The notes under the pieces were generated by a model, which was not told the origin of the DNA, made no database searches, and saw nothing but the letters and a program-made list of their open reading frames with translations. Of a stretch of DNA of 32,000 bases, positions 1-17,085 are shown one piece after another. The DNA is from Synechococcus sp. A15-28. Its GTDB lineage: Bacteria; Cyanobacteriota; Cyanobacteriia; PCC-6307; Cyanobiaceae. The position numbers and the translations under genes are program-made. Numbering within the stretch: the stretch's first letter is position 1; the number at the start of each line of letters is the position of its first letter. Location: positions 150,001 through 182,000 of the forward strand of contig NZ_CP047931.1 in assembly GCF_014280175.1 (NCBI RefSeq). Reading direction: 5' to 3'.

Positions 1-162
1 TCTTCAACAAATCATTACTCTAGTATTCATACTCAAATTCTTCCTAATAGCCCTCAATTCATTGAAGTTATTGTGTCACCTGATGAGTATATTGGTCCCA
101 GGCTTATGCCCTCCGATAGCATTGATGATGAACACCTTAATATGTATCCCTATCTTAATTAA
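1..162 (+). CDS. 3' end of an unidentified CDS (partial, continues beyond left edge)
   Basis: Frame 1 is open from base 1 for 53 codons (...DEHLNMYPYLN) up to TAA at 160-162. This is AT-rich DNA where stop codons are frequent. No recognisable motif. Confidence 0.3.
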   Translation, partial: SSTNHYSSIHTQILPNSPQFIEVIVSPDEYIGPRLMPSDSIDDEHLNMYPYLN

Positions 163-178
163 ATTTTTTTAGATACCA

Positions 179-1306
179 ATGAAGCTGATTTTTCATCAAT
201 GCGAAAAACCGTTAGTTCAGTCAATGAAGATATCTCGCGGTGGGTTTCAATCGCGAATTCACAACATATTTGAGTTAAGATTAAATAATCGATCTTTTTA
301 CTCAGAAGTTATAGGTGATTCCTCTCTCATAAAATACCTAGTCTCGAAGCTTTCTGCATACATTAAGGCTTATAATCCTCTCGACGTCAGTGCTCTGTTT
401 GAATGTATTGCTAGCTGGCCAAATACTTTTGTTTATTTAGAGTCTGCCAGCAGCATTCACTCCATAATATGCGCATTTGATTGGCTTTACTGTGTTTATT
501 CTTCATATTCGCAGAATATATCCTTATATGAGTATTTAGGTCTTCCCATAGCTACCTCAAACCAATGCCCTATATATGCCTCTAACTTTTATATGTATGA
601 TGATATGAGTGACTTTGAATCTCAATTCTCTGGGTTTGATTTTTCAAAAACGAATAATATAAAAGTTCATTTAGGAGCAAATGCAATCGAAGACGAGTCT
701 GATTTCTATCTAGTGCTTGAGAGATATATGCATCGCGCTGATTCTATAATGATTGATTACAATTGTGGATATAACCTATCAGCGCTTGTTGACATTCAAA
801 ATGTATTGCTTCGATATCCTAATTTGTCTAATAAGTTATTATGGGTAGAAGAACCTACTCACCCCAATTTCTCTAAATATTGGAAAGACCTGTTATTTTT
901 TGAATGTGCGGCAGGCGAGAATCATCATGGTGTTGAAAGTCTTTTTCAGTTGACTAATTGTAATGTAAAATACATCATGCCTGATCTTGGAAGAACTTTA
1001 AAAGTATCTGAGCTTCCATCTCTAATAAAGAGACTTGAAAAGTCAGATTCATCTATTTCCTTTCATAGTTTTTCAAGTGGTTTCTTGTCTTACATTACAT
1101 TATATCTAACATTGTCTCTTGATACGAAGCATCAAATGTTTGAATATGACTTTTCTGATAACGCTTTGCTCGATGAGATTCTTCTTGATTCCTTCCAAAT
1201 TAAAGACGGCTATGTAACACTTAATAGCTCAGTCTTATTTGATTTGAATTTACCTTCTACACTAGATGGTTGGTATACTACTAGTATCGAACTTTTTGAA
1301 GCATGA
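179..1306 (+). CDS. enolase-superfamily (mandelate racemase / muconate lactonizing enzyme-like) protein
   Basis: The order of barrel-domain motifs matches the MR/MLE metal-ligand and catalytic pattern: IKVHLG, MIDYNCGY, LWVEEP, AAGEN, IMPDLGR. The stop overlaps the next start (ATGA at 1303-1306). Confidence 0.5.
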   Translation: MKLIFHQCEKPLVQSMKISRGGFQSRIHNIFELRLNNRSFYSEVIGDSSLIKYLVSKLSAYIKAYNPLDVSALFECIASWPNTFVYLESASSIHSIICAFDWLYCVYSSYSQNISLYEYLGLPIATSNQCPIYASNFYMYDDMSDFESQFSGFDFSKTNNIKVHLGANAIEDESDFYLVLERYMHRADSIMIDYNCGYNLSALVDIQNVLLRYPNLSNKLLWVEEPTHPNFSKYWKDLLFFECAAGENHHGVESLFQLTNCNVKYIMPDLGRTLKVSELPSLIKRLEKSDSSISFHSFSSGFLSYITLYLTLSLDTKHQMFEYDFSDNALLDEILLDSFQIKDGYVTLNSSVLFDLNLPSTLDGWYTTSIELFEA

Positions 1307-2010
1307 AACCAATTGATCTTAACTCATTGAAGAACTATCTAGACTTAGGGTATTTTTCTTCTTCACCTGGTACTAGACGCAGTATCAAAAGAAATATAGC
1401 CAACAAAATGCGAGCATGGGAGCTTTCGTATGATTACTATGATGGAGATAGAGATGACGGGTATGGTGGTTTTACCTTTGATGATAGATGGAATGCTTAT
1501 CTGCATAAACTGTTTATATCTACCAATCTAATCTCATCAGCTAACCCGAATCTTTCTGTATTAGATGTTGGCTGCAAAAAGGGATTTTTATTGCAATCTT
1601 TAAGGAAATTGTACCCTAATGTCTATTCCGTTGGAGTTGAAAATCATAGATATCCATTAAGTGTTGCTGACTCTTCGATAAAGTCGAGGCTGCTTTTGTC
1701 TGAATATTATAATCTTCCATTTGAGGATCATTGCTTTGATCTCGTTATTGCATTCTCCTCCATCTACATGTATAATTTAAAAGGTGTGATTAATTCAATA
1801 CGTGAGATTCAGCGCGTCTCCTCTAATACCTCTTATATCTCTTTGGCTGCTTATAATCATGACTGGGAAAAAGATATCTTCATGAATTGGACACTTCTAG
1901 GAACAACTTGCCTCCATATTTCTGAGTGGCTTGATATATTTAACGATTTAAATTACACCGGTTATTACGTCTTTACTACTCCTACACTTTTGGGTTTTTC
2001 AAATGATTGA
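1303..2010 (+). CDS. class I SAM-dependent methyltransferase
   Basis: Motif I is VLDVGCKKGFLLQSL. It is followed by VGVENH and the post-II/IV segment LPFEDHCFDLVIAFSS. There is an 8-nt overlap with the next ORF. Confidence 0.7.
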   Translation: MKPIDLNSLKNYLDLGYFSSSPGTRRSIKRNIANKMRAWELSYDYYDGDRDDGYGGFTFDDRWNAYLHKLFISTNLISSANPNLSVLDVGCKKGFLLQSLRKLYPNVYSVGVENHRYPLSVADSSIKSRLLLSEYYNLPFEDHCFDLVIAFSSIYMYNLKGVINSIREIQRVSSNTSYISLAAYNHDWEKDIFMNWTLLGTTCLHISEWLDIFNDLNYTGYYVFTTPTLLGFSND

Positions 2011-2788
2011 TAAATCAGCTCCCAATGTTTCTAGTAGTGACTCCCTAGCCAAAAGATCTTGTGTAAAAAAGCCGTGGGGATATGAGTTCGAATATTTTGA
2101 AAACACTGATGTCTCTATTTGGGTACTTTGCATGGGTTATATGCATAAGAGTGGATACCTAATGGATGACAGCAAGACTTCATTTCATATGCATGAACAT
2201 AAAAGCTCAACTGTATTATGTATAGATGGTGCTATAATGGTTGAAACATTCTCGGGAGCAAATATACTTCGTCCTTTTGAGTCAACTAAGGTTTCAAGTA
2301 AGGAATTTCACCGTGTTTCTTCGTATCTAAATTACGGAATTGCTCTTGAAATTGAGTCTCCTAATGACCGCAACGATATTGCGCGATTATTCGATAGTCA
2401 CGGACGTGTAAATAAGGGATACGATTGGAACCACTCTGATCTTTCTGATTTATCTATATTAAAGTCAGAAGTCGATTTTTCGAACAATTTCCCTAATCTT
2501 ACTTTGATTGATGCTGAAACTGGTGTTAGTTCTTTGCAAATTTATAATAAGAATAATACAACATACATAACAGGTGTCTCTGTTGACCAATTAGTTCAAA
2601 CTTATGATTCAGGATCTGTATTTATCTGCACTGAAGGCAAGTTAATTGACAAAAACAACAAAACTATTTTACTTCCGTCTTCTGTTTATGTAGTCGAAAA
2701 TCTTGCTATGCTATCAGAAAGATTTTTTGCTCATAATCATGGTTTAGCAAATCTAAGTGGCTTCATTGTTACTAGTTATGCAGCTTGA
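2003..2788 (+). CDS. cupin-domain protein (sugar isomerase/epimerase-like N-terminal cupin, unknown C-terminal half)
   Basis: KKPWGYE followed by SFHMHEHKSSTVLCIDG resembles cupin motif 1, and FHRV lies downstream. The last ~130 aa have no motif I recognise. The 3' end overlaps the convergent gene by 13 nt. Confidence 0.5.
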   Translation: MIDKSAPNVSSSDSLAKRSCVKKPWGYEFEYFENTDVSIWVLCMGYMHKSGYLMDDSKTSFHMHEHKSSTVLCIDGAIMVETFSGANILRPFESTKVSSKEFHRVSSYLNYGIALEIESPNDRNDIARLFDSHGRVNKGYDWNHSDLSDLSILKSEVDFSNNFPNLTLIDAETGVSSLQIYNKNNTTYITGVSVDQLVQTYDSGSVFICTEGKLIDKNNKTILLPSSVYVVENLAMLSERFFAHNHGLANLSGFIVTSYAA

Positions 2789-3591
2789 AGTGTTTTTCTT
2801 TTCTTTACGCAATCACTATCATTTGTATATAATCCTAAAAACCACCTAATATCTCCTCCTTTACCTTGTATTTTATTTACGCCATGTATTATCCTGGCTG
2901 AACCAACTCCCATGTCACCTGGTAAAAATAGACCCTCAAGTTCCTGCTGTTCTTTTTTTGAATTTAGCGCCCAAAATCCACCCCCCATAAAGTCATGTCC
3001 CTGTTTTGACAAATAACCTGAAATAAACAATCTTTGGTTGTGGTCAGGGTCTTGATGCGCTGGCAAATAACCACTGTTTGCATGGTATTGAACAACTTGA
3101 ATACGATCAACATAACCCTCCTCAGGCTTTGAATGTTCAGCAAAGTCTTCACTCCTGCCTCCCAATACTTTATAGAGCCTCCAACGTCTATTGATTAATG
3201 CAAATAGTTCCTTTTGATCATTCCATGGGAAAAAGTACGCTGCTTGCTTTACAATTGGTACTGAATATTTCTTGGCAATTTCCGGTGTAATATTTCTCCA
3301 GTAATCTGGAATCAATCTATCCATTTTATAGAAAGTACTTTCTGTTTTCTCCTGAAGATTAAGCATTGACTCTTTTATGAAATATATCTCTTCTTTGCTA
3401 AAACAACTTCTAATCACTAGAAATGCGCCTGTAGACAGTTCTTCTACTAAAGACGTAAACATATTCGCACCCTCTGCAACTACTGTTTCTAACTCATGAA
3501 AGTCTATCTCCACTATCTTAGAGAAATGCTTACATTCGAGATTTCTATCGGCTTCGTCCCAGATTATTTTGGCTTTTGCAAAATTGTCCAT
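2776..3591 (-). CDS. Fe(II)/2-oxoglutarate-dependent oxygenase-like protein
   Basis: HxD...H facial-triad arrangement: PAHQDPD (H179, D181) and a distal IIHGV (H236). It starts 3 nt downstream of the radical SAM gene. Confidence 0.5.
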   Translation of the reverse strand: MDNFAKAKIIWDEADRNLECKHFSKIVEIDFHELETVVAEGANMFTSLVEELSTGAFLVIRSCFSKEEIYFIKESMLNLQEKTESTFYKMDRLIPDYWRNITPEIAKKYSVPIVKQAAYFFPWNDQKELFALINRRWRLYKVLGGRSEDFAEHSKPEEGYVDRIQVVQYHANSGYLPAHQDPDHNQRLFISGYLSKQGHDFMGGGFWALNSKKEQQELEGLFLPGDMGVGSARIIHGVNKIQGKGGDIRWFLGLYTNDSDCVKKRKTLQAA

Positions 3592-3594
3592 TGG

Positions 3595-4728
3595 TTAAAT
3601 AAAGTTTTTGTGCAATACGTTACCCTCTATAATATCATACAAATATCGGTTTGGTTCGTCCATTCTGCATGTTCTTCTGCAGTCATTAAGGTCAAGCTTC
3701 GTTTGAACATATTCAAGGCACTTTTGTCTCTCAGGAGACTTCCAAATGTTTTCGATTTTTTCTTCTTTAACGTTTCCTAATTTAAAGTTTTCATTTCCAA
3801 CGTGTGCACCACAACCATACACTGAACCATCCCCTGATATGTAGAACCATAAGGCTGGCGTACTCCAGCAAGTTTTGTATCTTTCTACTTCTCCTCGCAA
3901 TTTTTCTAATGCATTAAATCGACTAACAAAATTAAAATCTTTTACATTTTTGTATTTTTCACTAAGAGACTGAACTGTGTCTCTATAGAGAGCTGATGAA
4001 TAATCGAGCGAATTCTTATAACCTTCTTGCTTCATATATACATTATGTACGTATGGTTTTAGTACCACATAGTCGACGCCATGATCAATAGCTCTCTCAC
4101 AGAGCTCATCAAGAGTATCAATATTATCAGGCAGTAGCAATGATTGTATGCCTAAAGCACATTTATTTGTATTTCTGTTGTCCCTTCTGTGTGAAACTAA
4201 ATTATCAATATTTTCCCAAACTTTGTTAAAGTCTTCTTTGCGTGTTCTATGTATAGCTTCATAGCTATTTTCATTGCCTGCATTCATGGAAATTTTGATC
4301 CATGAGACATTGTGAATTGCTTTTCTAATGAATTCACTATTTAAATAAACTCCATTAGTCGTAAAGGATGTATCTATTCCATTCGATGCTGCATCATTTA
4401 CTATATCTGAGATCTCCTTATTGAGTAAAGGCTCTCCGTCACCAGCAAACATTACTGATTTTAATCCTATGTTACGTGCTGAATCAAAAAACTCTTTTAG
4501 GAGGCTCCTATTCAAAAATATTGGTTTATAGCCAATATAATCAACAGAACAAAATGTGCATCTATGATTGCATGATCCAGAACTCGATATTTCTGCATAT
4601 ATTGGTTTCAGCTCCTTGTGTTTGTTCCAATCATCTTTGGCGTCTATTAACGCACTGACTCTATCGGGATGATAATGAAGCTTATGCGTGTCAATCCGAA
4701 ATTTGTCCATGAATTTTTTTTTTATCAT
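3595..4728 (-). CDS. radical SAM protein with Cys-rich (SPASM/twitch-like) C-terminal region
   Basis: CNHRCTFC (CX3CX2C) is encoded at 4549-4572, followed by the MFAGDGEPLLN glycine-rich SAM motif. The C-terminus carries extra cysteines (CWST...YGCG...DCRRTC). Confidence 0.85.
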   Translation of the reverse strand: MIKKKFMDKFRIDTHKLHYHPDRVSALIDAKDDWNKHKELKPIYAEISSSGSCNHRCTFCSVDYIGYKPIFLNRSLLKEFFDSARNIGLKSVMFAGDGEPLLNKEISDIVNDAASNGIDTSFTTNGVYLNSEFIRKAIHNVSWIKISMNAGNENSYEAIHRTRKEDFNKVWENIDNLVSHRRDNRNTNKCALGIQSLLLPDNIDTLDELCERAIDHGVDYVVLKPYVHNVYMKQEGYKNSLDYSSALYRDTVQSLSEKYKNVKDFNFVSRFNALEKLRGEVERYKTCWSTPALWFYISGDGSVYGCGAHVGNENFKLGNVKEEKIENIWKSPERQKCLEYVQTKLDLNDCRRTCRMDEPNRYLYDIIEGNVLHKNFI

Positions 4729-4807
4729 ACCATGCCTTGCTTGCAGGCTAATGTGAGCGAAGCCTTCATTAATAATTAGTAGATTCTTATCAACTAATGA
4801 CTTCTAC

Positions 4808-5794
4808 TTATTTTTTGTGTGAGTACTCCCAACTCATCTTTATCAGGCTATTTAGGTTTTCTCTTACCCAGATTATTGTTTTGTCTATACCAGCTTCTAG
4901 GTTGCATTCATCTTTCCATTCCATTTCAATTCTTAGTTTGTCTGTTTTCAACAAATATGTGTCGTCTTTCCCTAATCTCTCGTCAGTCACTTCAACACAT
5001 TTTTCGAAACTACCCCCAGTTCTCTTGAATATTCTCATTACTAGCTCTTTGATGGATATAATTTCGTTGGTTGATATATGCCATATTGACCCCGGATTGG
5101 CTCTTTCCATAATTAACCTTGTAGCTCTGACTGTGTCGTCAATATATACAAATGATCTTTTTGATTTCCCCCCTCCGTGTAGTTGCATACGCGCTCCTGT
5201 TAAAGAACATAGTATTGCTTTAGGCATAATCCTATATAACTGTTGGCCTGGTCCATATACATTCGCTGCTCTTGTAAAAACAACTGGAAAGTTATATGCA
5301 TTTAAAAAGCTCTTTAGATGTAAATCGCACGCAGCTCTACTTACTGCATAGGGTGTAGAAGGCTTGTAATTTTCGTTTTCTTTTTGCCATTTTCCTTCAC
5401 TGCTGCCATATACTTCGGGAGTGCTTATATGAACGTACTTCTCAAGACCCTCTGTTTGCCTCAAGATATCATGCAATTTAACTTGTGCTACAACATTTGT
5501 TTGATACCAATCTTCTGGGGTTCGCCAACTTTGTGCCACCATTCCTTGAGAAGCAAAATTTACTACATACTCTGGCTTATACTTATTAATTATATTTTTA
5601 AGAATCTCCTCATCATGATTTAGGTTGACCTGTTCAAAGACTATATCTTTTTTATCCCATTTGTAGGGTAAAAATTCTATGGGTGGCTCTGCTGACCTAC
5701 TTATTCCAATTACATTATATCCTCTTTTAATGCATTCCCTGCAGTAGTGTGCCCCCGTGAAGCTATTGCTTCCAATGACTAAAATAGTTTTCAT
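4808..5794 (-). CDS. NAD(P)-dependent sugar epimerase/dehydratase (extended SDR family)
   Basis: N-terminal Rossmann motif ILVIGSNSFTGAHY, then HISTPEVYG, and a catalytic segment PYAVSRAA (YxxxR rather than YxxxK). It abuts the upstream gene with 0-nt spacing. Confidence 0.8.
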   Translation of the reverse strand: MKTILVIGSNSFTGAHYCRECIKRGYNVIGISRSAEPPIEFLPYKWDKKDIVFEQVNLNHDEEILKNIINKYKPEYVVNFASQGMVAQSWRTPEDWYQTNVVAQVKLHDILRQTEGLEKYVHISTPEVYGSSEGKWQKENENYKPSTPYAVSRAACDLHLKSFLNAYNFPVVFTRAANVYGPGQQLYRIMPKAILCSLTGARMQLHGGGKSKRSFVYIDDTVRATRLIMERANPGSIWHISTNEIISIKELVMRIFKRTGGSFEKCVEVTDERLGKDDTYLLKTDKLRIEMEWKDECNLEAGIDKTIIWVRENLNSLIKMSWEYSHKK

Positions 5795-7255
5795 TCAGTC
5801 AAAAAACTCAGTTATTTTTGATTCTAGCTTTTTAATTGTAATTGGTACATTACCCATTGTTTCGACTGCTGTGCATGCAATAAATGTACCTATGAAGGCG
5901 ACTTTCATAATTGGCTGGCGCAGTGACAGGCCTATTGCCATTCCTGCGAGCAACGAGTCTCCTGCTCCAGTCACATCTACTGGTGTGACTGCCAAAGCTG
6001 GATATGCCTGCTTCACTGTCCTTCCATCATCTTGATTCTGATAAACGATAAAACCTTCTGCACCTATTTTCATTATCATATTTTTTGATCTGGTTACCTT
6101 CATTACTTCTAGGCTTAGTTGCTCTAAATTAATATCTTTTTTTTGCAATGCCACCTTGGCTTCTCTTTCATTTGGACATATTAGTTCTGCCCCCCTATAT
6201 TTAGTTATCGATCCAACTTGCGAGCTACATTGTAGATCTGCAAAGATTGGTATACCTTTCTTCGTTGCTAAACTCTCTATTGTATCTTTTACTTTGTCAG
6301 TAATTACTCCATAAACAAAGTCTGAGATAACAATTCCGTCATGTGTTTTTATTTTTTCCTCTAGTTCTTCAATGACTTTTCTCTCAACTTCTGAATCAAC
6401 ATCTTTTTCATCCAACTTGCTTACTCTAAATAGTTTTTGACCATCAACAACGTATCTTTTCTTTACTGTCGTTGGTCTGCGCTTATCTTTAATCAGCGAA
6501 CAATTAATGTTTAACGAGTTCAGTTCACTTCTTATCCATTCAGAGGCTTCATCGTCCCCTGTTACAGATATGTATGAGCATTTTGCACCTAATGCACTTA
6601 TATGACTAGCAACAATACTTGCCCCACCTACGAATTTTTTTTCTTCTATTTCTTTTACAACAACTACCGGAGCTTCCGCACTTAGTCCCAGTGCTTCACA
6701 CACAGAATATTCATCAACTATTGTATCTCCAATAACAAGAATATTCGCATTTTTCCAGTTTTCTAAAAGTTCGTTGATATCCGATTTTTGTATTGATCTC
6801 TTTTCACATATCTCCTTTATTGCTTTTAATTTTTTTTCTTTTCTTTCTTGCTCTGTTTTGGTTAATAAATCATGAGCATCATTGACTTGATCCGTTACAT
6901 GATATAAAACTTTTCTCCCTTCACAGACTTGGAGATCAATAGCCTCATGGATTCTTATATCGTTAGTGTTTTTGTGTTCGATGCCTAGTACTAGGAAATC
7001 AGGTTTTAGATCTTTAATTGCAGCCGCTAAATCTTTGTTTGCTAGTGATATTAACTCCTCATTTGTCGTAAATCTTCTGAGTGATTCTATTCTTTCTTCT
7101 TGAGAATAGGGATATATCGGATTACCTTTATTGTCTCTTTCATCGCCTGCTACTGCTATTATTACTTTTTCTCCTTGTTTCTTCGCGTATCCTAGATATC
7201 GAAGATGCCCAGGATGTATGGAACTGAAGTGTCCATATGTTAAAACTGTAACCAT
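5795..7255 (-). CDS. bifunctional cytidylyltransferase-like (HxGH) domain / PfkB-family heptose 7-phosphate kinase-like protein (HldE/RfaE-like, reversed domain order)
   Basis: N-terminal GHFSSIHPGH is encoded at 7205-7234. A K/E-rich linker follows. Then comes an RfaE-domain-I-like ILVIGDTIVDEY...SAEAPVVVV...GGASIVA and the PfkB signature DVTGAGDSLLAG, encoded at 5942-5977. Confidence 0.8.
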   Translation of the reverse strand: MVTVLTYGHFSSIHPGHLRYLGYAKKQGEKVIIAVAGDERDNKGNPIYPYSQEERIESLRRFTTNEELISLANKDLAAAIKDLKPDFLVLGIEHKNTNDIRIHEAIDLQVCEGRKVLYHVTDQVNDAHDLLTKTEQERKEKKLKAIKEICEKRSIQKSDINELLENWKNANILVIGDTIVDEYSVCEALGLSAEAPVVVVKEIEEKKFVGGASIVASHISALGAKCSYISVTGDDEASEWIRSELNSLNINCSLIKDKRRPTTVKKRYVVDGQKLFRVSKLDEKDVDSEVERKVIEELEEKIKTHDGIVISDFVYGVITDKVKDTIESLATKKGIPIFADLQCSSQVGSITKYRGAELICPNEREAKVALQKKDINLEQLSLEVMKVTRSKNMIMKIGAEGFIVYQNQDDGRTVKQAYPALAVTPVDVTGAGDSLLAGMAIGLSLRQPIMKVAFIGTFIACTAVETMGNVPITIKKLESKITEFFD

Positions 7256-7259
7256 TGTC

Positions 7260-7829
7260 TTATCCCTGCTTGCTTCTTATTAGTATTTCTTGCATGCAGA
7301 TATGCCCAACTATTAATTGCCAATCTTCGCTTATTTGCATGTCATTAACATCAAAGTGTATCGCTATATCTACTAAGTTTTTACATATTCCTCCATCATA
7401 TCCAAAAATTCCAATAGTCTTCATTTCTTTTTTCCTGCCCACTTCTATAGCATTAATTATATTTTTTGAATTGCCGCTACCGGAAAGTACTAACAGCATA
7501 TCACCTTTCATGCCTTTTCTTTCTACTTGATGGCTAAATATCTGTTCGTACCCCAAATCATTACCAAGGCATGTCAATATGGATGTATTACTTGCTAACG
7601 CTTCTACTTTGATTCCTCTCGAGTTCTTTGCATTTTTGCATGCGCCATAATGTAAATCGTTTGATATGTGAAGCGCATTAGCCGCGCTTCCTCCGTTTCC
7701 ACAAATATACACCACATTATTATTTTTTCTGCATTCATCTATTTCATTTATCAACTTAGTTATCTTTTCTTCAATGTCTCCAGGAGTACAACTTATTAAT
7801 CTCTGTAAGTAATTCTTTGCAAGCACCAT
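7260..7829 (-). CDS. gmhA: sedoheptulose 7-phosphate isomerase (phosphoheptose isomerase, SIS domain)
   Basis: 189 aa, typical GmhA length. ICGNGGSAANALHISNDL and VLSGSGNSKNIINAIE are typical GmhA/SIS motifs. Confidence 0.85.
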   Translation of the reverse strand: MVLAKNYLQRLISCTPGDIEEKITKLINEIDECRKNNNVVYICGNGGSAANALHISNDLHYGACKNAKNSRGIKVEALASNTSILTCLGNDLGYEQIFSHQVERKGMKGDMLLVLSGSGNSKNIINAIEVGRKKEMKTIGIFGYDGGICKNLVDIAIHFDVNDMQISEDWQLIVGHICMQEILIRSKQG

Positions 7830-7874
7830 GATACTTCAACATACCTGGGCACTCTACCATGGGCCGCACCCTCT

Positions 7875-8954
7875 CTACGTTAATCTCATTTCAATATTCT
7901 GTCTTATCATGTATTCGTATGTCTCATGATTACTTCTTTCATTAATCCATGTTTGGCCGGGACAACTATTGTATCGGTATAATCTTTGCGAACTATATGG
8001 GGTTACCCAGATTGCATCTGCATATAGCACATAATTAACATCTTTAGATAATATGCATACCTCGGATATGCCACCACCATTAATCTGATAATGTAAACGC
8101 GATTGACTAGCTGTAATTATTTCATCCATGAAATTACCTGAGTTTCCAAATAGCACAAGCTTATTTCTTGTATAGATACTGTTCAAGTAATCTCTACCTT
8201 CCTTGCATGTAAGTATGATTGTTTTTTGGCCATATTCATTATATAGGTTGGTTATCGTTTCCATTATTGCGAATGGATTGTTATTTTTTATTGGCCTCGC
8301 GCGATTGTATCTAAAGTTTGTTGTCATATATTCTCCTATAGTATTTTTCTTTCTGTACTTTTCTCTTAGTCTATCGCCAAATAAGTAATTCTCTTCATAT
8401 GCTTCTAGTCTCTTATGAAATAGTGCTGTAAGTAGTGAATACAATTCTCTTGTTAAGGTAAAAAAGTTTTTTACCTTTTTTTTGTCAACCCACTCTTCCT
8501 CTATCATGTTTGCTTGTACTAACTTTTCAAATAGTATTGTTCCCTCTAGGTTCTTAATAATTGTTTTCTCCCTCTCCAGTTCAGTCACTCTTATTATTTC
8601 AATATTTCTTCCCGCGAGAACTTCATCATTTATCTTCCCTATATTTTCATACACGGAAGCTCCCACTTTATCGGTTTTGTTAGTTTTATTTTCTTTCTCA
8701 TAACTCCATAGCCCAGATTTTTCTGCTTCGAAGATATAGATGTTTGTTACTACACCTAAGGCCTTTAATGTAGATATGCAATTTAATGCATGTATCAATT
8801 CACCGTATTTCGGCTTAACCCATTTGAGATCAATTATTGCATTTAAACCTTTGCCGTAGCTTCCCTTCTTGATTTTATTGGCAACATTTATTACCTCTCT
8901 GCTGTACATTGTACTCGCATTTACCAAAAACTTTTCTAATACTTTATTTCGCAT
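7875..8954 (-). CDS. hypothetical protein (orphan inside the heptose operon; weak GT-B-like C-terminal segment)
   Basis: A 359-codon ORF in AT-rich DNA, tightly packed between gmhA and the NTP-transferase gene. Only a weak LFGNSGN...INGGGISE resemblance to glycosyltransferase C-terminal domains. Confidence 0.5.
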   Translation of the reverse strand: MRNKVLEKFLVNASTMYSREVINVANKIKKGSYGKGLNAIIDLKWVKPKYGELIHALNCISTLKALGVVTNIYIFEAEKSGLWSYEKENKTNKTDKVGASVYENIGKINDEVLAGRNIEIIRVTELEREKTIIKNLEGTILFEKLVQANMIEEEWVDKKKVKNFFTLTRELYSLLTALFHKRLEAYEENYLFGDRLREKYRKKNTIGEYMTTNFRYNRARPIKNNNPFAIMETITNLYNEYGQKTIILTCKEGRDYLNSIYTRNKLVLFGNSGNFMDEIITASQSRLHYQINGGGISEVCILSKDVNYVLYADAIWVTPYSSQRLYRYNSCPGQTWINERSNHETYEYMIRQNIEMRLT

Positions 8955-8969
8955 TGCTTTCTGTCAAAT

Positions 8970-9695
8970 CTACTGCATTATATCAGTATCCGGTCTCGTC
9001 CTAAAATATTCACATGCATGTTCCAGTCTTTCAACAGAACCGATATCATCAAAATAACCTTTTGATTCATATGAATATATTTGGCCTGTTAAATATTGAA
9101 TTATATCCTTAGTTAAATCAAAATTCTTCTTTCCAGAAAATGTATCATAGTTCCAGAATTCTTTGGCGAGTATGTATACTGCTCCGTTTGCTTGGTATCC
9201 ATTGTAATCTTTACTTTTTTCGTGAAACTCGACAACTATATTTTTTGAATTTGTTTTTATTATTCCACATTCATGTGGACGCTCTGTTGTGTAGGTCATC
9301 ATTGTGATATTGCACTGCCTAGGTCTTTCTTTATGCGCCCTTATAAAGCCTGTTAAACTATCTTCCACAATGTTGTCTGTGTGTATCACTAGACAATCGT
9401 CATGCCTTAAGACTTCTTTGTGTGCTTCTAGTGTTCCTGCAGTTCCTAATAGCTTTTCTTCGTAGTGCAATTCTATTTTCTTACCTCTATTCTTCCACTT
9501 CTCCATATGACTTTCGACAATATCATGCATATAATGTGTATTTATTATTATATTATCTACGCCGACTCTTTCAAGTTTTTTTATCCAAATGTCTAGCAAT
9601 ACCTTTCCATTAATTGTAACCAAGCATTTGGGTATTTTGTTTGTAATTGGTCTCAATCGTGTGCCTAGTCCAGCAGATAGAAGAAGTGCGTACAT
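8970..9695 (-). CDS. sugar-1-phosphate nucleotidyltransferase (HddC / mannose-1-P guanylyltransferase-like)
   Basis: N-terminal LLSAGLGTRLRPIT (GxGTRxxP) and LGTAGTL, in a 241-aa single-domain NTP-transferase. Confidence 0.8.
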   Translation of the reverse strand: MYALLLSAGLGTRLRPITNKIPKCLVTINGKVLLDIWIKKLERVGVDNIIINTHYMHDIVESHMEKWKNRGKKIELHYEEKLLGTAGTLEAHKEVLRHDDCLVIHTDNIVEDSLTGFIRAHKERPRQCNITMMTYTTERPHECGIIKTNSKNIVVEFHEKSKDYNGYQANGAVYILAKEFWNYDTFSGKKNFDLTKDIIQYLTGQIYSYESKGYFDDIGSVERLEHACEYFRTRPDTDIMQ

Positions 9696-9762
9696 TTTTG
9701 TGTTTTCGTTTTTAGCTTGCCTAGTCCGATGATACCATTGTACATCTTGGCGTGTATTTTCA

Positions 9763-10635
9763 GTGCCAGTAGCATATCTCTATCCATCCGCTACGCCGTG
9801 GGCTAATCACCAACTATTGTCCCTTTATAAGAGATTAGATTGCGCTTCCCGCGGTTGCTCTTTGGTCAACCGCATTCCATATCGATCTAAAGTTCCTCAT
9901 GTTACTTATGGCTACCTAGGTTATTATTCGAACCTGCGTAAGCAAAATATCCCTCACAATTCTTCTTTTTCGAATCTCTATATTCTTGATCATGCCTATG
10001 TTCCTTCCTCTCTCAAAGGCTCAGTTTTTCGTTTATGCAGTGGCAATAGTGATTTAACACCTTTTGTTACTCATGATTCTCTCTTATCATCAATTGATCT
10101 TGATTTTACATTTAATCACTTATGTCAACTTCAATCTGCATCTGAAATATCTTTTTCAGTCCCTTCCTTGCAATCATTTGATGGCACTTCCCGTATTGCC
10201 TTGTTCATAAAGTCATCTCCTGTTATATCTCGTCTTCTAGCCTCTAAGTTCTTAGGATCTATTTCCTTCTGGAAATCCCACCTCCACCCAGATTTGACTC
10301 CTCTCTTATCTGTAAAGCCCACTGAAGTCGTTCTCTCACCCTTCTTCACCACTAAATCGAGAATTCACCAAGTTATAAAAAAAACTTTTAATTATGACCA
10401 GTTTGAATTTGTATATTCGCCATCCTCTATGATGGCTATACCTTTTATCCTTCACTCAATTCCTGTTTACTTGTCCACTGCACATCCTCTTTTCCCAATT
10501 CTTGGCTCATACATCCCTCCCTTATCTAGAAAGCAATCCATCGAACTAATAATTAACGCTATTTCTAGGACTTCGATTTCTATCTCCACGTTTTCTGATC
10601 TGGAAGCATTGCTGTCAGTCATTCATCCTCATTGA
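9763..10635 (+). CDS. hypothetical protein, Ser/Leu/Phe/Pro-rich
   Basis: A 290-codon ORF with a GTG start at 9763, far longer than expected by chance in this composition. It ends 1 nt before the next gene. No motif recognised. Confidence 0.45.
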   Translation: MPVAYLYPSATPWANHQLLSLYKRLDCASRGCSLVNRIPYRSKVPHVTYGYLGYYSNLRKQNIPHNSSFSNLYILDHAYVPSSLKGSVFRLCSGNSDLTPFVTHDSLLSSIDLDFTFNHLCQLQSASEISFSVPSLQSFDGTSRIALFIKSSPVISRLLASKFLGSISFWKSHLHPDLTPLLSVKPTEVVLSPFFTTKSRIHQVIKKTFNYDQFEFVYSPSSMMAIPFILHSIPVYLSTAHPLFPILGSYIPPLSRKQSIELIINAISRTSISISTFSDLEALLSVIHPH

Positions 10636-10636
10636 T

Positions 10637-11422
10637 ATGTCTAGCTTTCCGTCTCTTCTTGATAATGTTTCGCGTTCACAGTTAAGGCTTGAACCTTTTC
10701 CCCATTATGTAATCGAAAATGCGTTGCCCATTGATACTTATGCTAAGTTATCTAAATCGTTTCCATCTTCATATTTATCATCTGATTCTTCCCATGTAAT
10801 AAATGATCGTGGCCATACGAGAAGATTGTTGGCTCGGAACTTTCCTTTGGTTAGTGATGTTCCGCAAACTTGGTGTGATTTTGCCGATGTCCATACTCAT
10901 CCTTCTTTTTTTAGTGCTGTTACCTCTTTCTTCCTTCAACAGCCTATTGAAATTTATTACCCTGGACTCTTATCTAAGCTTCAAAATCTTGACATATCTC
11001 TTAGATCTGGCGAACAATCAATTGACTCTAATTCCTGTTTGACTGATTTTCAGTTGGTTGCTAATTTGCCCCATGGCGACAACCATAGTAGTCGGAGTCC
11101 CCATCTTGATAATCCACAACAACTCTATGCAATTTTGTACTACATGAGATCGACTGACGATCAATCAATTGGTGGTGGTTTAAAATTATATTCCGCTTCA
11201 AATTATGTTAAATCTATCACGCATGGTCGTAATCGCAGTATCGATGAGCAATACTTGACCCCCTTTGACCTCCTTCCCTACAAATCAAATACTGCTATCC
11301 TTTTTCTCAACACCCGCAAGTCTTATCATTCTGTTCAACCCATATTTTCTCAATCTGTTATCCGTCGTAGTGTTAATATCATTGGTGAACTGCCTCCTGG
11401 CTCTCGTCTTTTTAAAATCTGA
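10637..11422 (+). CDS. 2OG-Fe(II) oxygenase family protein (prolyl-hydroxylase-like)
   Basis: N-terminal EPFPHYVIENAL, an HxD in SPHLDNP, GGGLKLY, and a distal His in SYHSV. The motif order is the same as in the 20499-21233 protein. Confidence 0.6.
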   Translation: MSSFPSLLDNVSRSQLRLEPFPHYVIENALPIDTYAKLSKSFPSSYLSSDSSHVINDRGHTRRLLARNFPLVSDVPQTWCDFADVHTHPSFFSAVTSFFLQQPIEIYYPGLLSKLQNLDISLRSGEQSIDSNSCLTDFQLVANLPHGDNHSSRSPHLDNPQQLYAILYYMRSTDDQSIGGGLKLYSASNYVKSITHGRNRSIDEQYLTPFDLLPYKSNTAILFLNTRKSYHSVQPIFSQSVIRRSVNIIGELPPGSRLFKI

Positions 11423-11425
11423 TAT

Positions 11426-12256
11426 ATGGCCTTCAACCCCTTAACTGGTCTTGCCGTTTCACGCGCTACTGCGCTTTTACGTGAGAACTCACCGACTAGC
11501 CCACAGGGCTCTGTATTGGACTTTGGTAATCAAAGATTCCGACTTACCCCTCCTGTTCTTAAACACATTTCTAAAGAGCTCGATTGTTCTTTTGAGATCC
11601 CTTCTAATGAAGAAGATTTTACTAATTATACTCCTTTTTTTTACCGAGATATTGGTTATTCCGAATATATCGCTATTGATATGAATCAAAAAATGAGTGC
11701 TATTCCGATGGATTTGAATACTCATATACCTACTTCCTATCGTTACAAGGCTCAGCATTCACTTGTTATTGATAATGGTACTGGCGAGCATGTGTTTGAT
11801 CAGCATATGGTTTTTAGAAACCAGCATGACCTTTGTTCTGTAGGTGGAATCATCTTGAACAATAAGCCTTTTTTCCCTTGGATTAATCATGGCTTTTTTG
11901 CCTTCCAGCCGGTTTTATTTAGGGACCTCGCTTATGCCAATGGATATGAACCCGTTTTCACATGGCTTGGTGGTAATCACGGCGAGTTCATAGACGTAAC
12001 CGATAATGACGATATCTGGGTTGAAATTCCTCGTTCGTTTCCATTTTGGAAACGCCCCAAAGGTGCCCTTGAGACACTTCTCTACGACAAGCTTTTAGAA
12101 AAGAACAATATCTCAATTGTTGTTGCATACCGTAAGGTAAATGACAACCCTTTCCAAATACCACTTCAAGGGAAGTGGATTCATAATATCGCCGATAAAG
12201 AACTTAAGGAAAGGTACAAAGGTCAGCCCGACACCTACCGAGATTTTCACAGTTAG
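11426..12256 (+). CDS. putative SAM-dependent methyltransferase-like protein
   Basis: Class I MTase-like motif order: VLDFGNQ, YIAIDMN, MDLN, SLVIDNGTGEHVFD, VGGIILNNKPF. The motifs are divergent, so the call is tentative. Confidence 0.4.
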   Translation: MAFNPLTGLAVSRATALLRENSPTSPQGSVLDFGNQRFRLTPPVLKHISKELDCSFEIPSNEEDFTNYTPFFYRDIGYSEYIAIDMNQKMSAIPMDLNTHIPTSYRYKAQHSLVIDNGTGEHVFDQHMVFRNQHDLCSVGGIILNNKPFFPWINHGFFAFQPVLFRDLAYANGYEPVFTWLGGNHGEFIDVTDNDDIWVEIPRSFPFWKRPKGALETLLYDKLLEKNNISIVVAYRKVNDNPFQIPLQGKWIHNIADKELKERYKGQPDTYRDFHS

Positions 12257-15139: not shown

Positions 15140-17031
<1,892 letters not shown>

Positions 17032-17058
17032 TTTACTCCGTTTCACCTCATAAGCTCG

Positions 17059-17083
17059 GCCCGGCTTCAGCCGGGCTTTTTTT
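17059..17083 (+). terminator. rho-independent terminator after psaC
   Basis: Stem GCCCGGC (17059-17065) / GCCGGGC (17070-17076), loop TTCA, then seven T (17077-17083). Confidence 0.75.
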
Positions 17084-17085
17084 GT

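What the first reader, a model, noticed from the sequence alone, without database searches (positions are those of the whole stretch)
2776..9695. Low-GC operon for a nucleotide-activated, heavily tailored heptose (candidate undescribed sugar pathway)
Seven minus-strand genes are packed with gaps of 15, 45, 4, 0, 79 and 3 nt. In order they are an NTP-transferase (GxGTRL), a 359-aa orphan, a GmhA-type isomerase, a cytidylyltransferase-like/heptose-kinase-like fusion, an extended SDR, a radical SAM enzyme (CNHRCTFC) and an HxD...H oxygenase. GmhA plus an RfaE-domain-I-type kinase plus a nucleotidyltransferase is the established core of NDP-glycero-manno-heptose synthesis. The SDR, the convergent cupin (2003-2788), the radical SAM enzyme and the Fe/2OG oxygenase have no role in the textbook ADP- or GDP-heptose routes. 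I therefore infer that the product is a modified heptose. SDR and cupin tailoring of GDP-heptose is known from Campylobacter capsule loci. I cannot map a cassette that adds a radical SAM enzyme, 2OG oxygenases, several methyltransferases and an enolase-like enzyme to any described pathway. Its location in a low-GC island of a picocyanobacterium suggests a strain-variable surface glycan relevant to phage or grazer interactions.
Basis: partly seen in the sequence, partly recalled or inferred. Interest (0 to 1): 0.7.

Follow-up and report, generated by a model that had tools for sequence, protein, structure and literature searches.

The report
Uncharacterised tailored-heptose sugar operon, Synechococcus island
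A foreign, low-GC gene cluster in a marine Synechococcus appears to build and attach an unusual heptose-type (seven-carbon-based) surface sugar, and it is one version of a gene cassette found widely in ocean bacteria and some archaea whose sugar product nobody has identified.

Summary
Seven tightly packed minus-strand genes (2776-9695) sit in a 35% GC island of Synechococcus sp. A15-28, whose core DNA is about 62% GC. Its "orphan" is a GT-B glycosyltransferase closest in fold to GT9 heptosyltransferases. The HxD...H protein has an Fe(II)/2OG dioxygenase fold.

- The isomerase and kinase match heptose enzymes best (GmhA, RfaE domain I/HldA), but score below equivalog cut-offs.
- No GmhB phosphatase lies in the window.
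- The kinase's N-terminal nucleotidyltransferase domain lacks its C-terminal signature motif.
- The SDR is not a canonical 4,6-dehydratase (TDE→TPE, YxxxK→YxxxR).

The operon is not a one-off. SIS isomerase, reverse-order HldE-like fusion, twitch-type radical SAM enzyme, a thiamine enzyme and usually an SDR recur in Cyanobacteria, Acidimicrobiia, Paraburkholderia, Solidesulfovibrio, Paceibacterota and Methanoregula. The locus also runs past the window's left edge, where the tail of an acetolactate-synthase-like thiamine enzyme sits at 1-162.

No characterised counterpart was found. My best reading is an NDP-heptose-derived sugar with a two-carbon branch, methylated and hydroxylated, for a strain-variable surface glycan. 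This is a new variant of a known kind, of moderate to good interest.

The parts
1..162 (+). 3' end (last 53 codons plus stop) of an acetolactate-synthase/YerE-like thiamine-diphosphate enzyme, cut off by the window edge.
   Evidence: tblastn of the full-length TPP enzyme of L017 matches window 25-159 in frame +1 (42% identity, E=2e-6). The same gene order TPP-MR_MLE_C-MT-cupin occurs in L015, L016 and L017. The L017 enzyme's best NCBIfam model is acolac_lg (258 bits, below cut-off).
179..1306 (+). Enolase-superfamily protein (MR_MLE_C domain), 375 aa. Role unknown.
   Evidence: Pfam PF13378 E=1e-11. Orthologs of 40-47% identity sit in the same position in L015, L016 and L017.
1303..2010 (+). 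Class I SAM-dependent methyltransferase, 235 aa.
   Evidence: Pfam Methyltransf_31/11/25. It is 51-52% identical to the MT next to MR_MLE_C in L015 and L017, and 29-33% identical to the MT next to the SIS gene in L001, L003, L004, L007, L009 and L012.
2003..2788 (+). Probable cupin-fold protein, 261 aa. It converges on the oxygenase gene and overlaps it by 13 nt.
   Evidence: The evidence is weak: MannoseP_isomer C-terminal (cupin) E=0.02; the L015 and L017 homologs (32-33% identity) hit Cupin_2 at E=1.3e-5 and 3.3e-3. There is no hit to the RmlC family PF00908.
2776..3591 (-). Fe(II)/2-oxoglutarate dioxygenase of an unnamed family, 271 aa. GenBank annotates only 213 aa.
   Evidence: No Pfam, NCBIfam or PDB sequence hit. 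AF2 model pLDDT 95.2. Foldseek top hits are 2OG oxygenases: thymine-7-hydroxylase 1.6e-8, prolyl-4-hydroxylase, IPNS. H179, D181 and H236 are invariant and R249 is nearly invariant across 33 homologs.
3595..4728 (-). Radical SAM enzyme with a single-cluster (twitch-like) C-terminal domain. The probable true start is at 4710.
   Evidence: Pfam Radical_SAM plus SPASM. C53, C57 and C60 are invariant, and only four further Cys are invariant (C287, C306, C350, C354) in 116 homologs. 849 homologs were found. It is linked to the SIS and fusion genes across phyla.
4808..5794 (-). Extended SDR of the RmlB/UXS-like lineage with a non-canonical active site.
   Evidence: TIGR01181 scores 196.5 bits against a cut-off of 365. 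It aligns end to end with three RmlB structures but has STPEVYG where they have STDEVYG, YAVSR where they have YxxxK, and GSNSFTG where they have GxxGxxG. These changes are conserved in orthologs in L001, L003, L004, L007, L009 and L013.
5795..7255 (-). Reverse-order HldE-like fusion: an N-terminal cytidylyltransferase-like domain (~1-130) and a C-terminal PfkB kinase of the RfaE-domain-I type (~165-486).
   Evidence: Pfam PF01467 plus PF00294. TIGR02198 rfaE_dom_I scores 209.8 bits against a cut-off of 345. The best PDB hit is HldA 4e84, E=1e-21. The SAEAPVVVV and GAGD kinase motifs and the HPGH motif are invariant in the family. The N-domain aligns to solved cytidylyltransferases only up to residue ~96 and lacks the (F/L)xxGRSTT motif (motif from PMC11573728).
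7260..7829 (-). GmhA-family SIS isomerase (a putative sedoheptulose-7-P isomerase, or one acting on a related ketose phosphate).
   Evidence: TIGR00441 scores 127.7 bits against a cut-off of 209. It matches 13 GmhA structures at E 5e-25 to 8e-19. Of the four residues that, from my recollection of the GmhA literature, bind zinc in B. pseudomallei GmhA, both His are conserved, Glu is replaced by Asp and Gln by Glu; the SGSGNS phosphate loop is conserved.
7875..8954 (-).
   Evidence: No Pfam or NCBIfam hit even at E<=10. Only 23 representatives exist among 1.84 billion proteins. AF2 pLDDT 85.6, pTM 0.88. Foldseek top hits are a GT9 protein (3tov, 6.5e-7), WaaC (3e-6) and WaaF (1.5e-5), followed by UDP-GlcNAc 2-epimerases. 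A homolog lies two genes (a DAO-type oxidoreductase between) from the same NTP_transferase type in L018.
8970..9695 (-). RmlA/ManC/HddC-type sugar-1-phosphate nucleotidyltransferase.
   Evidence: Pfam NTP_transferase E=2.6e-33. No NCBIfam equivalog is reached; HddC scores 78.5 bits against a cut-off of 300. The best PDB relatives are GDP-mannose pyrophosphorylase (7.6e-21) and Yersinia HddC 5xhw (5.7e-17). Orthologs of 36-44% identity occur in L001, L003, L004, L007, L009, L013 and L018.
9763..12256 (+). Divergently transcribed trio inside the same low-GC island: 290-aa unknown (9763-10635), 2OG-Fe(II) oxygenase (10637-11422) and 276-aa unknown (11426-12256). Whether they belong to the pathway is uncertain.
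   Evidence: The ORFs are separated by 1 and 3 nt. PF13640 E=4.3e-6 for the middle one. No homologs were found in the fetched loci, except that the 276-aa protein is 32% identical to a hypothetical protein on the Solidesulfovibrio plasmid locus L099.

Best explanation
The seven genes are the right arm of a horizontally acquired surface-glycan locus in Synechococcus sp. A15-28. I propose that it makes and transfers a nucleotide-activated, heavily modified heptose-type sugar.

Proposed route:
1. The GmhA-family isomerase converts sedoheptulose-7-P to a heptose-7-P. The family is shown; the substrate is inferred.
2. The PfkB domain of the fusion phosphorylates C1. The family is shown; the substrate and anomer are inferred.
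3. An unidentified phosphatase removes the 7-phosphate. No such gene lies in the window.
4. The sugar-1-P is nucleotidylated, probably by the stand-alone NTP_transferase. The fusion's N-terminal nucleotidyltransferase domain has lost its C-terminal signature motif, and such degenerate domains always co-occur with an NTP_transferase in the sampled loci. This step is inferred.
5. The NDP-sugar is oxidised at C4 by the non-canonical SDR and/or the twitch-type radical SAM enzyme.
6. The thiamine enzyme at the left edge of the window adds a two-carbon acyl branch. Further tailoring comes from the cupin, the methyltransferase, the enolase-like protein and the Fe/2OG dioxygenase. This whole block is inferred from gene content and from known acyl-branched sugar pathways.
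7. The GT9-like GT-B transferase places the sugar on a cell-surface acceptor. The fold is shown; the donor and acceptor are inferred.

The locus is one mosaic variant of a widespread, experimentally uncharacterised cassette: SIS, reverse-order HldE-like fusion, radical SAM enzyme, a thiamine enzyme and usually an SDR.
For: -
- The orphan has a GT-B, GT9-like fold. The 271-aa protein has a 2OG dioxygenase fold with an invariant HxD...H.
- The SIS, fusion and radical SAM genes are syntenic in marine Acidimicrobiia (L004, L008), an unassigned marine metagenome contig (L007), Paraburkholderia steynii (L006), a Solidesulfovibrio plasmid (L099), Paceibacterota (L011) and Methanoregula (L012, L014). 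Synechococcus KORDI-100 (L001) and Prochlorococcus MIT 1300 (L003) carry the SIS, fusion and SDR genes but no radical SAM gene. A thiamine enzyme is nearly always adjacent, as a split transketolase, an E1 alpha/beta pair or an ALS-like enzyme.
- The left arm TPP-MR_MLE_C-MT-cupin-oxy271 recurs in L015, L016 and L017 beside Wzz, WecA-like GT4, Bac_transf, GT1, GT2, GT9 and ABC-transporter genes, which indicates a polysaccharide context.
- The tail of a TPP enzyme lies at window 1-162.
- Thiamine enzymes of these same three types install C2 acyl branches on NDP-keto sugars in known pathways (PMC9306805, PMC4753412).
- The degenerate N-domain correlates with an NTP_transferase neighbour: 5 of 5 degenerate lineages have one, and 0 of 4 canonical lineages do.
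- GC is 35% in the island against about 62% in the core.
Against: - All the heptose-enzyme matches fall below equivalog cut-offs.
- There is no GmhB/HAD motif in the 32 kb window.
- An RfaE-type kinase is expected to give the beta-1-phosphate, whereas the NTP_transferase's nearest solved relatives act on alpha-manno sugars.
- The SDR lacks the dehydratase Asp and the canonical Lys, so its chemistry is unknown.
- The roles of the radical SAM enzyme, the enolase-like protein and the cupin are guesses.
- No gene-for-gene copy of this exact seven-gene string was found. The window combines two modules that usually occur separately.
- There are no expression or chemical data.
Confidence: 0.5

Rival explanations
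1. Two sugars are made in one operon. GmhA plus the fusion make a plain NDP-beta-heptose that the GT9-like transferase uses directly. Separately, the NTP_transferase activates a different sugar-1-P (mannose-like or hexose), and the SDR, radical SAM enzyme, thiamine enzyme, cupin, methyltransferase and oxygenase tailor that sugar into a branched deoxyhexose of the yersiniose type.
For: - There are two nucleotidyltransferase candidates.
- The NTP_transferase is closest to GDP-mannose pyrophosphorylase.
- The SDR is closest to hexose 4,6-dehydratases.
- The alpha versus beta anomer mismatch would disappear.
- The left-arm module occurs in L017 without any SIS or fusion gene within 10 kb.
Against: - In Paraburkholderia, Methanoregula and Solidesulfovibrio, the radical SAM enzyme, the thiamine enzyme and an SDR sit directly beside the SIS and fusion genes with no NTP_transferase at all. 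There the tailoring must act on the product of SIS plus fusion.
- The N-domain of the window's fusion lacks the motif expected for activity.
Confidence: 0.2
2. The logic is the same but the sugar is not a heptose. The diverged GmhA-like isomerase and RfaE-like kinase act on another ketose phosphate, for example an octulose-8-P as in lincosamide biosynthesis (LmbN and partners; from my own knowledge) or a hexulose. The product would then be a higher-carbon or other rare sugar.
For: - All three core enzymes score well below the equivalog cut-offs: 127.7 against 209, 209.8 against 345, and 78.5 against 300.
- The GmhA metal and catalytic site carries Glu→Asp and Gln→Glu substitutions.
- Split transketolases in sister loci could supply or extend unusual ketoses.
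Against: - The best matches in every library are heptose enzymes.
- The kinase hallmark SAEAPVVVV and the GmhA phosphate loop are conserved.
- The linked transferase is most like heptosyltransferases.
Confidence: 0.15
3. The cluster makes a diffusible small molecule rather than a cell-surface glycan. Examples would be a heptose-containing nucleoside-type natural product, or a signalling NDP-heptose.
For: - ADP-heptose feeds natural products such as septacidin (PMC9978623, listed).
- The cluster carries many redox tailoring enzymes.
- The window island has no flippase, polymerase or initiating transferase.
Against: - A GT-B transferase lies inside the operon.
- Sister loci are embedded in Wzz, WecA, Bac_transf, GT and ABC-transporter genes, or next to TPR-GT41 proteins.
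- The neighbouring window genes are GlmS, ManC, a GT90-like protein and an FkbM methyltransferase.
Confidence: 0.07

Closest known systems
[quoted passage not shown]
   Same: The locus has a GmhA-family isomerase, an RfaE-domain-I-type PfkB kinase fused to a cytidylyltransferase-fold domain, and an HddC/ManC-like NTP_transferase. In every case the best HMM and PDB hits are the heptose enzymes.
   Different: - The domain order is reversed relative to HldE.
- The N-domain lacks the (F/L)xxGRSTT motif.
- There is no GmhB and no HldD.
- All scores fall below equivalog cut-offs.
- A beta-type kinase is mixed with an alpha-type nucleotidyltransferase.
Campylobacter jejuni capsule GDP-heptose tailoring (C4 dehydrogenase, cupin C3/C5 epimerases, C4 reductases, DmhA/DmhB; PMC10680097)
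   Same: Both use SDR, cupin and methyltransferase tailoring of an NDP-heptose for a variable surface polysaccharide.
   Different: - The SDR here is RmlB-like, not GMD-like (gmd 67.7 bits against a cut-off of 415), and has an altered active site.
- The cupin is not RmlC-family (no PF00908 hit).
- The radical SAM enzyme, thiamine enzyme, enolase-like protein and 2OG oxygenases have no counterpart in the Campylobacter system.
Thiamine-dependent acyl-branched sugar pathways (YerE for yersiniose; E1 alpha/beta-type enzymes for paulomycose, eurekanate and aldgarose; PMC9306805, PMC4753412)
   Same: An ALS-like thiamine enzyme lies next to sugar-nucleotide genes. Sister loci use E1 alpha/beta or split-transketolase forms in the same position.
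   Different: The known examples branch 6-deoxyhexoses or pentoses and involve no GmhA or HldE module and no radical SAM partner. Only the last 53 codons of the thiamine enzyme are inside the window.
NCBIfam/TIGRFAMs 'sporadic carbohydrate cluster' (TIGR04323 LIC12192 family; TIGR04324 2OG-Fe(II) oxygenase)
   Same: Both marker families occur inside the sister cassette L007, between the SDR and the radical SAM gene. So curators have already noticed a conserved, sporadically distributed carbohydrate cluster overlapping this cassette.
   Different: No window protein hits either marker. These families are placeholders with no assigned function, and no paper in the library mentions them.
Twitch/SPASM radical SAM enzymes acting on sugars (BtrN, DesII, BlsE)
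   Same: The enzyme has a CX3CX2C core plus one auxiliary-cluster Cys set. Weak PDB sequence hits include DesII and BlsE.
   Different: The similarity is confined to the radical SAM core (E 3e-4). The best PDB hit is the peptide maturase CteB (4e-9). The reaction type is unknown.

Membership tests
NDP-glycero-manno-heptose biosynthesis (ADP- or GDP-heptose pathway) | GmhA sedoheptulose-7-P isomerase with its catalytic and zinc-binding residues | tested here: inconclusive
   The best model is TIGR00441 (127.7 bits), below its cut-off of 209.45. It matches 13 GmhA structures at E down to 5e-25. Of the four zinc-site residues as I recall them from the GmhA literature, both His are kept, Glu is replaced by Asp and Gln by Glu; the phosphate loop is kept.
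NDP-glycero-manno-heptose biosynthesis (ADP- or GDP-heptose pathway) | Anomeric heptose-7-P kinase (HldE domain I/HldA, or HddA) | tested here: inconclusive
   TIGR02198 scores 209.8 bits against a cut-off of 345. Ribokinase scores only 65.9 bits. HldA 4e84 is the best PDB hit at 1e-21. The SAEAPVVVV and GAGD motifs are invariant in the family.
NDP-glycero-manno-heptose biosynthesis (ADP- or GDP-heptose pathway) | GmhB heptose-1,7-bisphosphate 7-phosphatase (HAD, DxDGT motif) | tested here: not met
   No HAD family hit appears among the window ORFs scanned. The only six-frame DxD[GN][TV] match lies antisense to the transketolase gene. The gene could be elsewhere in the genome, which I could not check.
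NDP-glycero-manno-heptose biosynthesis (ADP- or GDP-heptose pathway) | Heptose-1-P nucleotidyltransferase of the HldC/HldE-domain-II type, with HxGH and the C-terminal (F/L)xxGRSTT motif | tested here: not met
   HPGH is present. The motif region reads YHVTDQVNDAHDLL, and alignments to solved cytidylyltransferases stop at residue ~96. rfaE_dom_II scores 39.6 bits against a cut-off of 181.5 (motif from PMC11573728).
NDP-glycero-manno-heptose biosynthesis (ADP- or GDP-heptose pathway) | HddC-type heptose-1-P guanylyltransferase | tested here: inconclusive
   NF049965 HddC scores 78.5 bits against a cut-off of 300. Yersinia HddC structures match at E=5.7e-17, behind GDP-mannose pyrophosphorylase at 7.6e-21.
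NDP-glycero-manno-heptose biosynthesis (ADP- or GDP-heptose pathway) | HldD ADP-heptose 6-epimerase | tested here: not met
   The only SDR in the operon scores 42.1 bits on TIGR02197 against a cut-off of 274.6.
dTDP-glucose 4,6-dehydratase (RmlB) | Catalytic Thr-Asp-Glu and Tyr-x3-Lys, and the GxxGxxG NAD motif | tested here: not met
   Aligned to 2hun, 6bi4 and 8du1, the protein has STPEVYG where they have STDEVYG, YAVSR where they have YxxxK, and GSNSFTG where they have GxxGFIG. TIGR01181 scores 196.5 bits against a cut-off of 365.1.
Radical SAM, SPASM subgroup | CX3CX2C, plus the seven-Cys SPASM motif for two auxiliary clusters | tested here: not met
   CX3CX2C is invariant. Only four further Cys are invariant (C287, C306, C350, C354), which is enough for one auxiliary cluster, i.e. 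twitch-like. The Pfam SPASM domain hit is E=1.8e-8.
Fe(II)/2-oxoglutarate dioxygenase superfamily | Double-stranded beta-helix fold with an HxD/E...H iron triad | tested here: met
   AF2 pLDDT 95.2. There are 484 PDB matches at E<=1e-3, led by 2OG oxygenases. H179, D181 and H236 are invariant. These results rest on a predicted structure only.
GT9 heptosyltransferases (WaaC/WaaF) | GT-B fold, plus sequence membership of PF01075 | tested here: inconclusive
   The seven best Foldseek hits are all GT9 (E 6.5e-7 to 1.5e-5), with TM-scores of only 0.40-0.52 and 10-13% identity. There is no PF01075 hit even at E<=10. Related locus L016 carries a true PF01075 protein.
Campylobacter-type GDP-heptose tailoring | RmlC-like cupin C3/C5 epimerase and a GMD-like 4,6-dehydratase | tested here: not met
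   The cupin candidate has no PF00908 hit at E<=10. The SDR scores 67.7 bits on gmd against a cut-off of 415.
NCBIfam 'sporadic carbohydrate cluster' | Presence of the TIGR04323 and TIGR04324 marker proteins | tested here: not met
   The markers are present in sister locus L007 (239.7 and 106.3 bits) but absent from all window ORFs scanned.

The most novel reading that the evidence does not exclude
The conserved trio of GmhA-like isomerase, reverse-order HldE-like fusion and twitch radical SAM enzyme, working with a thiamine enzyme, defines an undescribed branch of nucleotide-sugar metabolism. It would build a C-branched or chain-extended sugar of nine or more carbons from sedoheptulose-7-P. 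It would be widespread in marine bacteria and present in methanogens. In its marine clade, the ancestral HldC-type nucleotidyltransferase domain has been functionally replaced by an RmlA/HddC-type enzyme.
Probability: 0.3. Interest if true: 0.75.

Novelty: new variant of a known kind. Interest (0 to 1): 0.58.

Why it matters
From my own knowledge, marine Synechococcus LPS is reported to lack heptose (Snyder et al. 2009), and strain-variable surface-glycan islands are the main determinants of cyanophage adsorption and grazing resistance in picocyanobacteria. This acquired locus would therefore add a foreign, chemically unusual sugar to the cell surface.

The cassette it belongs to is common. 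More than 1,500 fusion homologs and about 850 radical SAM homologs were found, mostly from marine metagenomes, and the cassette spans bacteria and archaea. No product is known for it. Solving one member would name a sugar that is probably abundant in the ocean, and would assign chemistry to a radical SAM family, a non-canonical SDR family (TPE, YxxxR) and two families with no Pfam or NCBIfam hit here. It would also bear on the open question raised after the cross-kingdom NDP-heptose work (PMC11573728): what non-LPS heptose pathways are for.

Tried and rejected
- **Exact-sequence look-ups.** I tried the A15-28 fusion and oxygenase proteins to obtain DNA left of the window. Neither is on record, so the upstream part of the locus (the rest of the TPP enzyme, and a DJ-1 gene if present) and any genome-wide GmhB could not be checked.
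- **Genome-collection scan with the radical SAM protein.** It returned only 7 loci.
- **Metagenome scan with the orphan GT.** The 16-sequence alignment failed. A 5-sequence alignment gave one 4-kb locus.
- **Viral contigs.** No close relatives were found. With an alignment, 137 distant relatives of the fusion appeared (<=33% identity). None carried another cassette gene, except one contig (L023) with a SIS gene and a few with distant SDR matches. A phage origin for the island is therefore not supported.
- **Promoter, terminator and tRNA scans.** These were uninformative: there were fewer promoter-like sites than in shuffles, and no tRNA lies at the island border.
- **Literature.** Eight full-text searches found no paper linking a radical SAM enzyme, a transketolase or thiamine enzyme, and heptose genes in a glycan pathway, and none on the 'sporadic carbohydrate cluster'. 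A ninth search retrieved the acyl-branched-sugar papers.
- **Closest oxygenase homolog on a longer contig (L100).** Its context is unrelated (two B12-radical SAM genes), so the 271-aa family is not tied to this cassette alone.
- **The SDR as a plain 4,6-dehydratase.** Rejected because of the Asp→Pro and Lys→Arg changes.
- **The orphan as a pathway enzyme.** Rejected in favour of a glycosyltransferase. A UDP-GlcNAc-2-epimerase-like role remains a weaker alternative.

Full report
**Observation.** The ORF table shows seven co-directional minus-strand ORFs at 8970-9695, 7875-8954, 7260-7829, 5795-7255, 4808-5794, 3595-4728 and 2776-3591. GC content is 0.34-0.40 across 1-13000 and jumps to 0.59-0.65 at 13001, where core genes begin: transketolase at 13073-15085 and FabF at 15140-16387. 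The fusion protein is 100% identical to a 'PfkB family carbohydrate kinase' of Synechococcus sp. A15-28. The host is therefore a high-GC marine picocyanobacterium and the region is a foreign island.

**Gene by gene.** Pfam and NCBIfam confirm every family call.
- **8970-9695** is an NTP_transferase (E=2.6e-33, GLGTRL motif). Its nearest solved relatives are GDP-mannose pyrophosphorylase (7.6e-21) and the Yersinia 6-deoxy-manno-heptose pathway enzyme HddC (5.7e-17).
- **7260-7829** is a SIS_2 protein. Its best model is gmhA (127.7 bits, cut-off 209), and it matches 13 GmhA crystal structures at E down to 5e-25. Of the four zinc-site residues as I recall them from the GmhA literature, both His are kept, Glu is replaced by Asp and Gln by Glu. 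The Ser-rich phosphate loop is conserved.
- **5795-7255** carries an N-terminal CTP_transf_like domain and a C-terminal PfkB kinase. The kinase's best model is rfaE_dom_I (209.8 bits, cut-off 345; ribokinase only 65.9), and its best structure is the Burkholderia heptose-7-P kinase HldA (1e-21).
- **4808-5794** is an extended SDR closest to dTDP-glucose 4,6-dehydratases.
- **3595-4728** is a radical SAM enzyme with a SPASM-type C-terminal domain.

The two proteins with no family hit were resolved by structure prediction.
- **The 359-aa 'orphan'** has only 23 representatives among 1.84 billion proteins. It folds with pLDDT 85.6 and pTM 0.88 into a GT-B architecture. Its seven best PDB matches are all GT9 heptosyltransferases: 3tov, WaaC and WaaF, at E 6.5e-7 to 1.5e-5. 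UDP-GlcNAc 2-epimerases follow.
- **The 271-aa protein** folds with pLDDT 95.2 into a 2OG-oxygenase fold: thymine-7-hydroxylase at 1.6e-8, then prolyl hydroxylases and IPNS. H179, D181 and H236 are invariant among 33 homologs.

**The locus is larger than the finding.**
- Window 1-162 encodes the last 53 residues of an acetolactate-synthase-like thiamine enzyme (42% identity to the full-length enzyme of L017, E=2e-6).
- It is followed by the enolase-like protein (179-1306), a methyltransferase (1303-2010) and a probable cupin (2003-2788). The cupin gene converges on the oxygenase gene.
- The same order, DJ-1 / TPP enzyme / MR_MLE_C / MT / cupin, with the oxy271 gene next to it or a few kb away, recurs in three metagenomic loci (L015, L016, L017). 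Two of these also carry the radical SAM enzyme and the SDR. Polysaccharide-assembly genes (Wzz, WecA-like GT4, Bac_transf, GT1, GT2, a true Pfam GT9, an ABC exporter) flank L016 and L017.
- A divergent trio at 9763-12256 (unknown, 2OG oxygenase, unknown) lies in the same island, but no fetched locus has homologs of it.

**Comparative genomics.**
- The fusion architecture is abundant. 1,530 proteins scored E<=1e-5, and the top 120 all carry PF01467+PF00294 at 45-51% identity.
- The radical SAM family has 849 members.
- Neighbourhoods and tblastn of the window proteins against all fetched loci show the SIS, fusion and radical SAM genes together in several lineages. These are marine Acidimicrobiia, Paraburkholderia steynii (beside two TPR-GT41 proteins), a Solidesulfovibrio plasmid (beside NeuB and PseF genes), a Paceibacterota contig and two Methanoregula genomes.
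- Synechococcus KORDI-100 and Prochlorococcus MIT 1300 carry the SIS, fusion and SDR genes but no radical SAM gene.
- A thiamine enzyme is almost always adjacent. It takes the form of a split transketolase, an E1 alpha/beta pair or an ALS-like enzyme.
- Orthologs of the window's SDR, methyltransferase and NTP_transferase occur in the marine loci.
- This phylum-spanning linkage is the strongest evidence that the radical SAM enzyme and the thiamine enzyme act on the product of the SIS and fusion proteins.
- No locus reproduces the window's seven-gene string gene for gene. The window is a mosaic of two recurrent modules plus a rare glycosyltransferase.
- A homolog of that glycosyltransferase sits two genes (a DAO-type oxidoreductase between) from the same NTP_transferase type in L018.

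**Mechanism.** The shown parts are the families, the folds, the conserved motifs and the synteny. The inferred route has six steps.
1. S7P is isomerised by the GmhA-like enzyme.
2. The PfkB domain phosphorylates C1.
3. An unidentified phosphatase removes the 7-phosphate.
4. The sugar-1-P is nucleotidylated.
5. The sugar is oxidised at C4 and tailored, including a thiamine-dependent two-carbon branch. Thiamine enzymes of exactly these three types do this in yersiniose, paulomycose and eurekanate pathways (PMC9306805, PMC4753412). Methylation and 2OG-dependent hydroxylation follow.
6. The GT9-like enzyme transfers the sugar to its acceptor.

The radical SAM enzyme has the CX3CX2C triad plus only four further invariant cysteines. 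That gives one auxiliary cluster, as in twitch enzymes that act on small molecules. Its reaction cannot be deduced.

**Departures from the textbook pathway.**
- No GmhB-type motif or HAD hit exists in the 32 kb window.
- The fusion's N-domain keeps HPGH but aligns to solved cytidylyltransferases only to residue ~96. Where the (F/L)xxGRSTT motif of heptose nucleotidyltransferases should be (PMC11573728), it reads YHVTDQVNDAHDLL.
- Fusions in Paraburkholderia, Methanoregula and Solidesulfovibrio keep KGPxRP and FSS(T/S) and have no NTP_transferase neighbour. All marine-clade loci with degenerate N-domains do have one: 5 of 5 against 0 of 4 lineages, not phylogenetically independent. This suggests the RmlA/HddC-type enzyme has taken over nucleotidyl transfer.
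- That in turn clashes with the beta-anomer expected from an RfaE-type kinase.
- The SDR aligns end to end with RmlB structures but has Pro for the catalytic Asp (STPEVYG), Arg for the SDR Lys (YAVSR) and GSNSFTG for GxxGxxG. These changes are conserved in its orthologs. It should not be called a 4,6-dehydratase.

**Comparison with what is known.** The nearest systems are listed here.
- The ADP- and GDP-heptose pathways.
- Campylobacter capsule heptose tailoring (PMC10680097).
- Thiamine-dependent acyl-branched sugar pathways.
- From my own knowledge, the lincosamide octose route, which reuses GmhA, kinase and NTase logic on an eight-carbon sugar.

NCBIfam contains two placeholder families, the 'sporadic carbohydrate cluster' protein TIGR04323 and oxygenase TIGR04324. 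Both hit ORFs inside sister locus L007 but nothing in the window. No paper in the library mentions them. Eight full-text searches found no characterised pathway combining these genes.

**Verdict.** The feature is real and coherent. 'A tailored, nucleotide-activated heptose-type sugar for a variable surface glycan' is the best reading (confidence about 0.5). The main rivals are two separate sugars made in one operon (0.2) and a non-heptose ketose substrate (0.15). It is a new variant of a known kind of system and a member of a large, uncharacterised cassette family. Interest is 0.58. It is not categorically new, but it is widespread and chemically unresolved, and it carries several specific, testable oddities.

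Noticed in passing
window 21000-26000: A second low-GC island (GC 0.34-0.37) lies between core genes. It holds an FkbM-family methyltransferase (21688-22443, minus strand), a 540-aa TPR protein (22628-24250, plus strand) and a GT90-like glycosyltransferase (24520-25734, minus strand). It is flanked by ManC (18979-20442), GlmS (17086-18975), a 2OG oxygenase (20499-21233) and RimM. The whole 32 kb window is a hotspot for surface-glycan genes.
   Followed up: partly
window 9763-12256 (+): Three long, tightly packed plus-strand ORFs have a pyrimidine-rich coding strand (GC skew -0.32, AT skew -0.25), the opposite of the usual purine-rich bias seen in the neighbouring minus-strand genes. Their proteins are rich in Ser, Pro, Leu and Phe. 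Two of the three have no family hit and no homolog in the fetched loci.
   Followed up: partly
window 2776-3591 (-): The public annotation of this gene (SynA1528_00169) is 213 aa and covers 79% of the ORF. Homologs of 276-284 aa align from about residue 7, so the 271-aa ORF is the likely true product.
   Followed up: yes
window 3595-4728 (-): In the alignment of 116 radical SAM homologs, the first five columns are gaps for most sequences, and the closest relative is 371 aa. The true start is therefore probably Met7 (coordinate 4710), which widens the gap to the SDR gene from 79 to 97 nt.
   Followed up: partly
L019-L098 (IMG/VR viral contigs): 137 viral-contig stretches encode distant relatives (24-33% identity) of the fusion. 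Many marine ones match query residues 4-440, which spans both domains in the same order. None carries another cassette gene, except L023 with a SIS gene and nine loci with distant (about 21-24% identical) SDR matches.
   Followed up: partly
L003 (Prochlorococcus sp. MIT 1300, CP139302.1) 16760-21503: Right next to the non-canonical cassette sits a textbook GDP-heptose set: NTP_transferase, SDR, SIS_2, a HAD/GmhB-like gene, a GHMP kinase and an SDR. One genome can therefore carry both routes side by side.
   Followed up: no
L099 (Solidesulfovibrio carbinolicus plasmid pDCAR1) and L004/L005: The fusion, SIS and radical SAM trio lies beside NeuB-family synthase genes, and in L099 also CMP-nonulosonate cytidylyltransferase genes (PseF, acylneuraminate cytidylyltransferase). 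This hints that some variants feed an ulosonic-acid type product.
   Followed up: no
L006 (Paraburkholderia steynii) 1634-5691: Two large TPR-Glyco_transf_41 (OGT-like) proteins sit beside the cassette. This suggests protein glycosylation, possibly of flagellin, as the destination of the sugar in that organism.
   Followed up: no
window 28704-28777 (+): tRNA-Arg (CCT) is the only tRNA in the window. It is not at either island border.
   Followed up: yes
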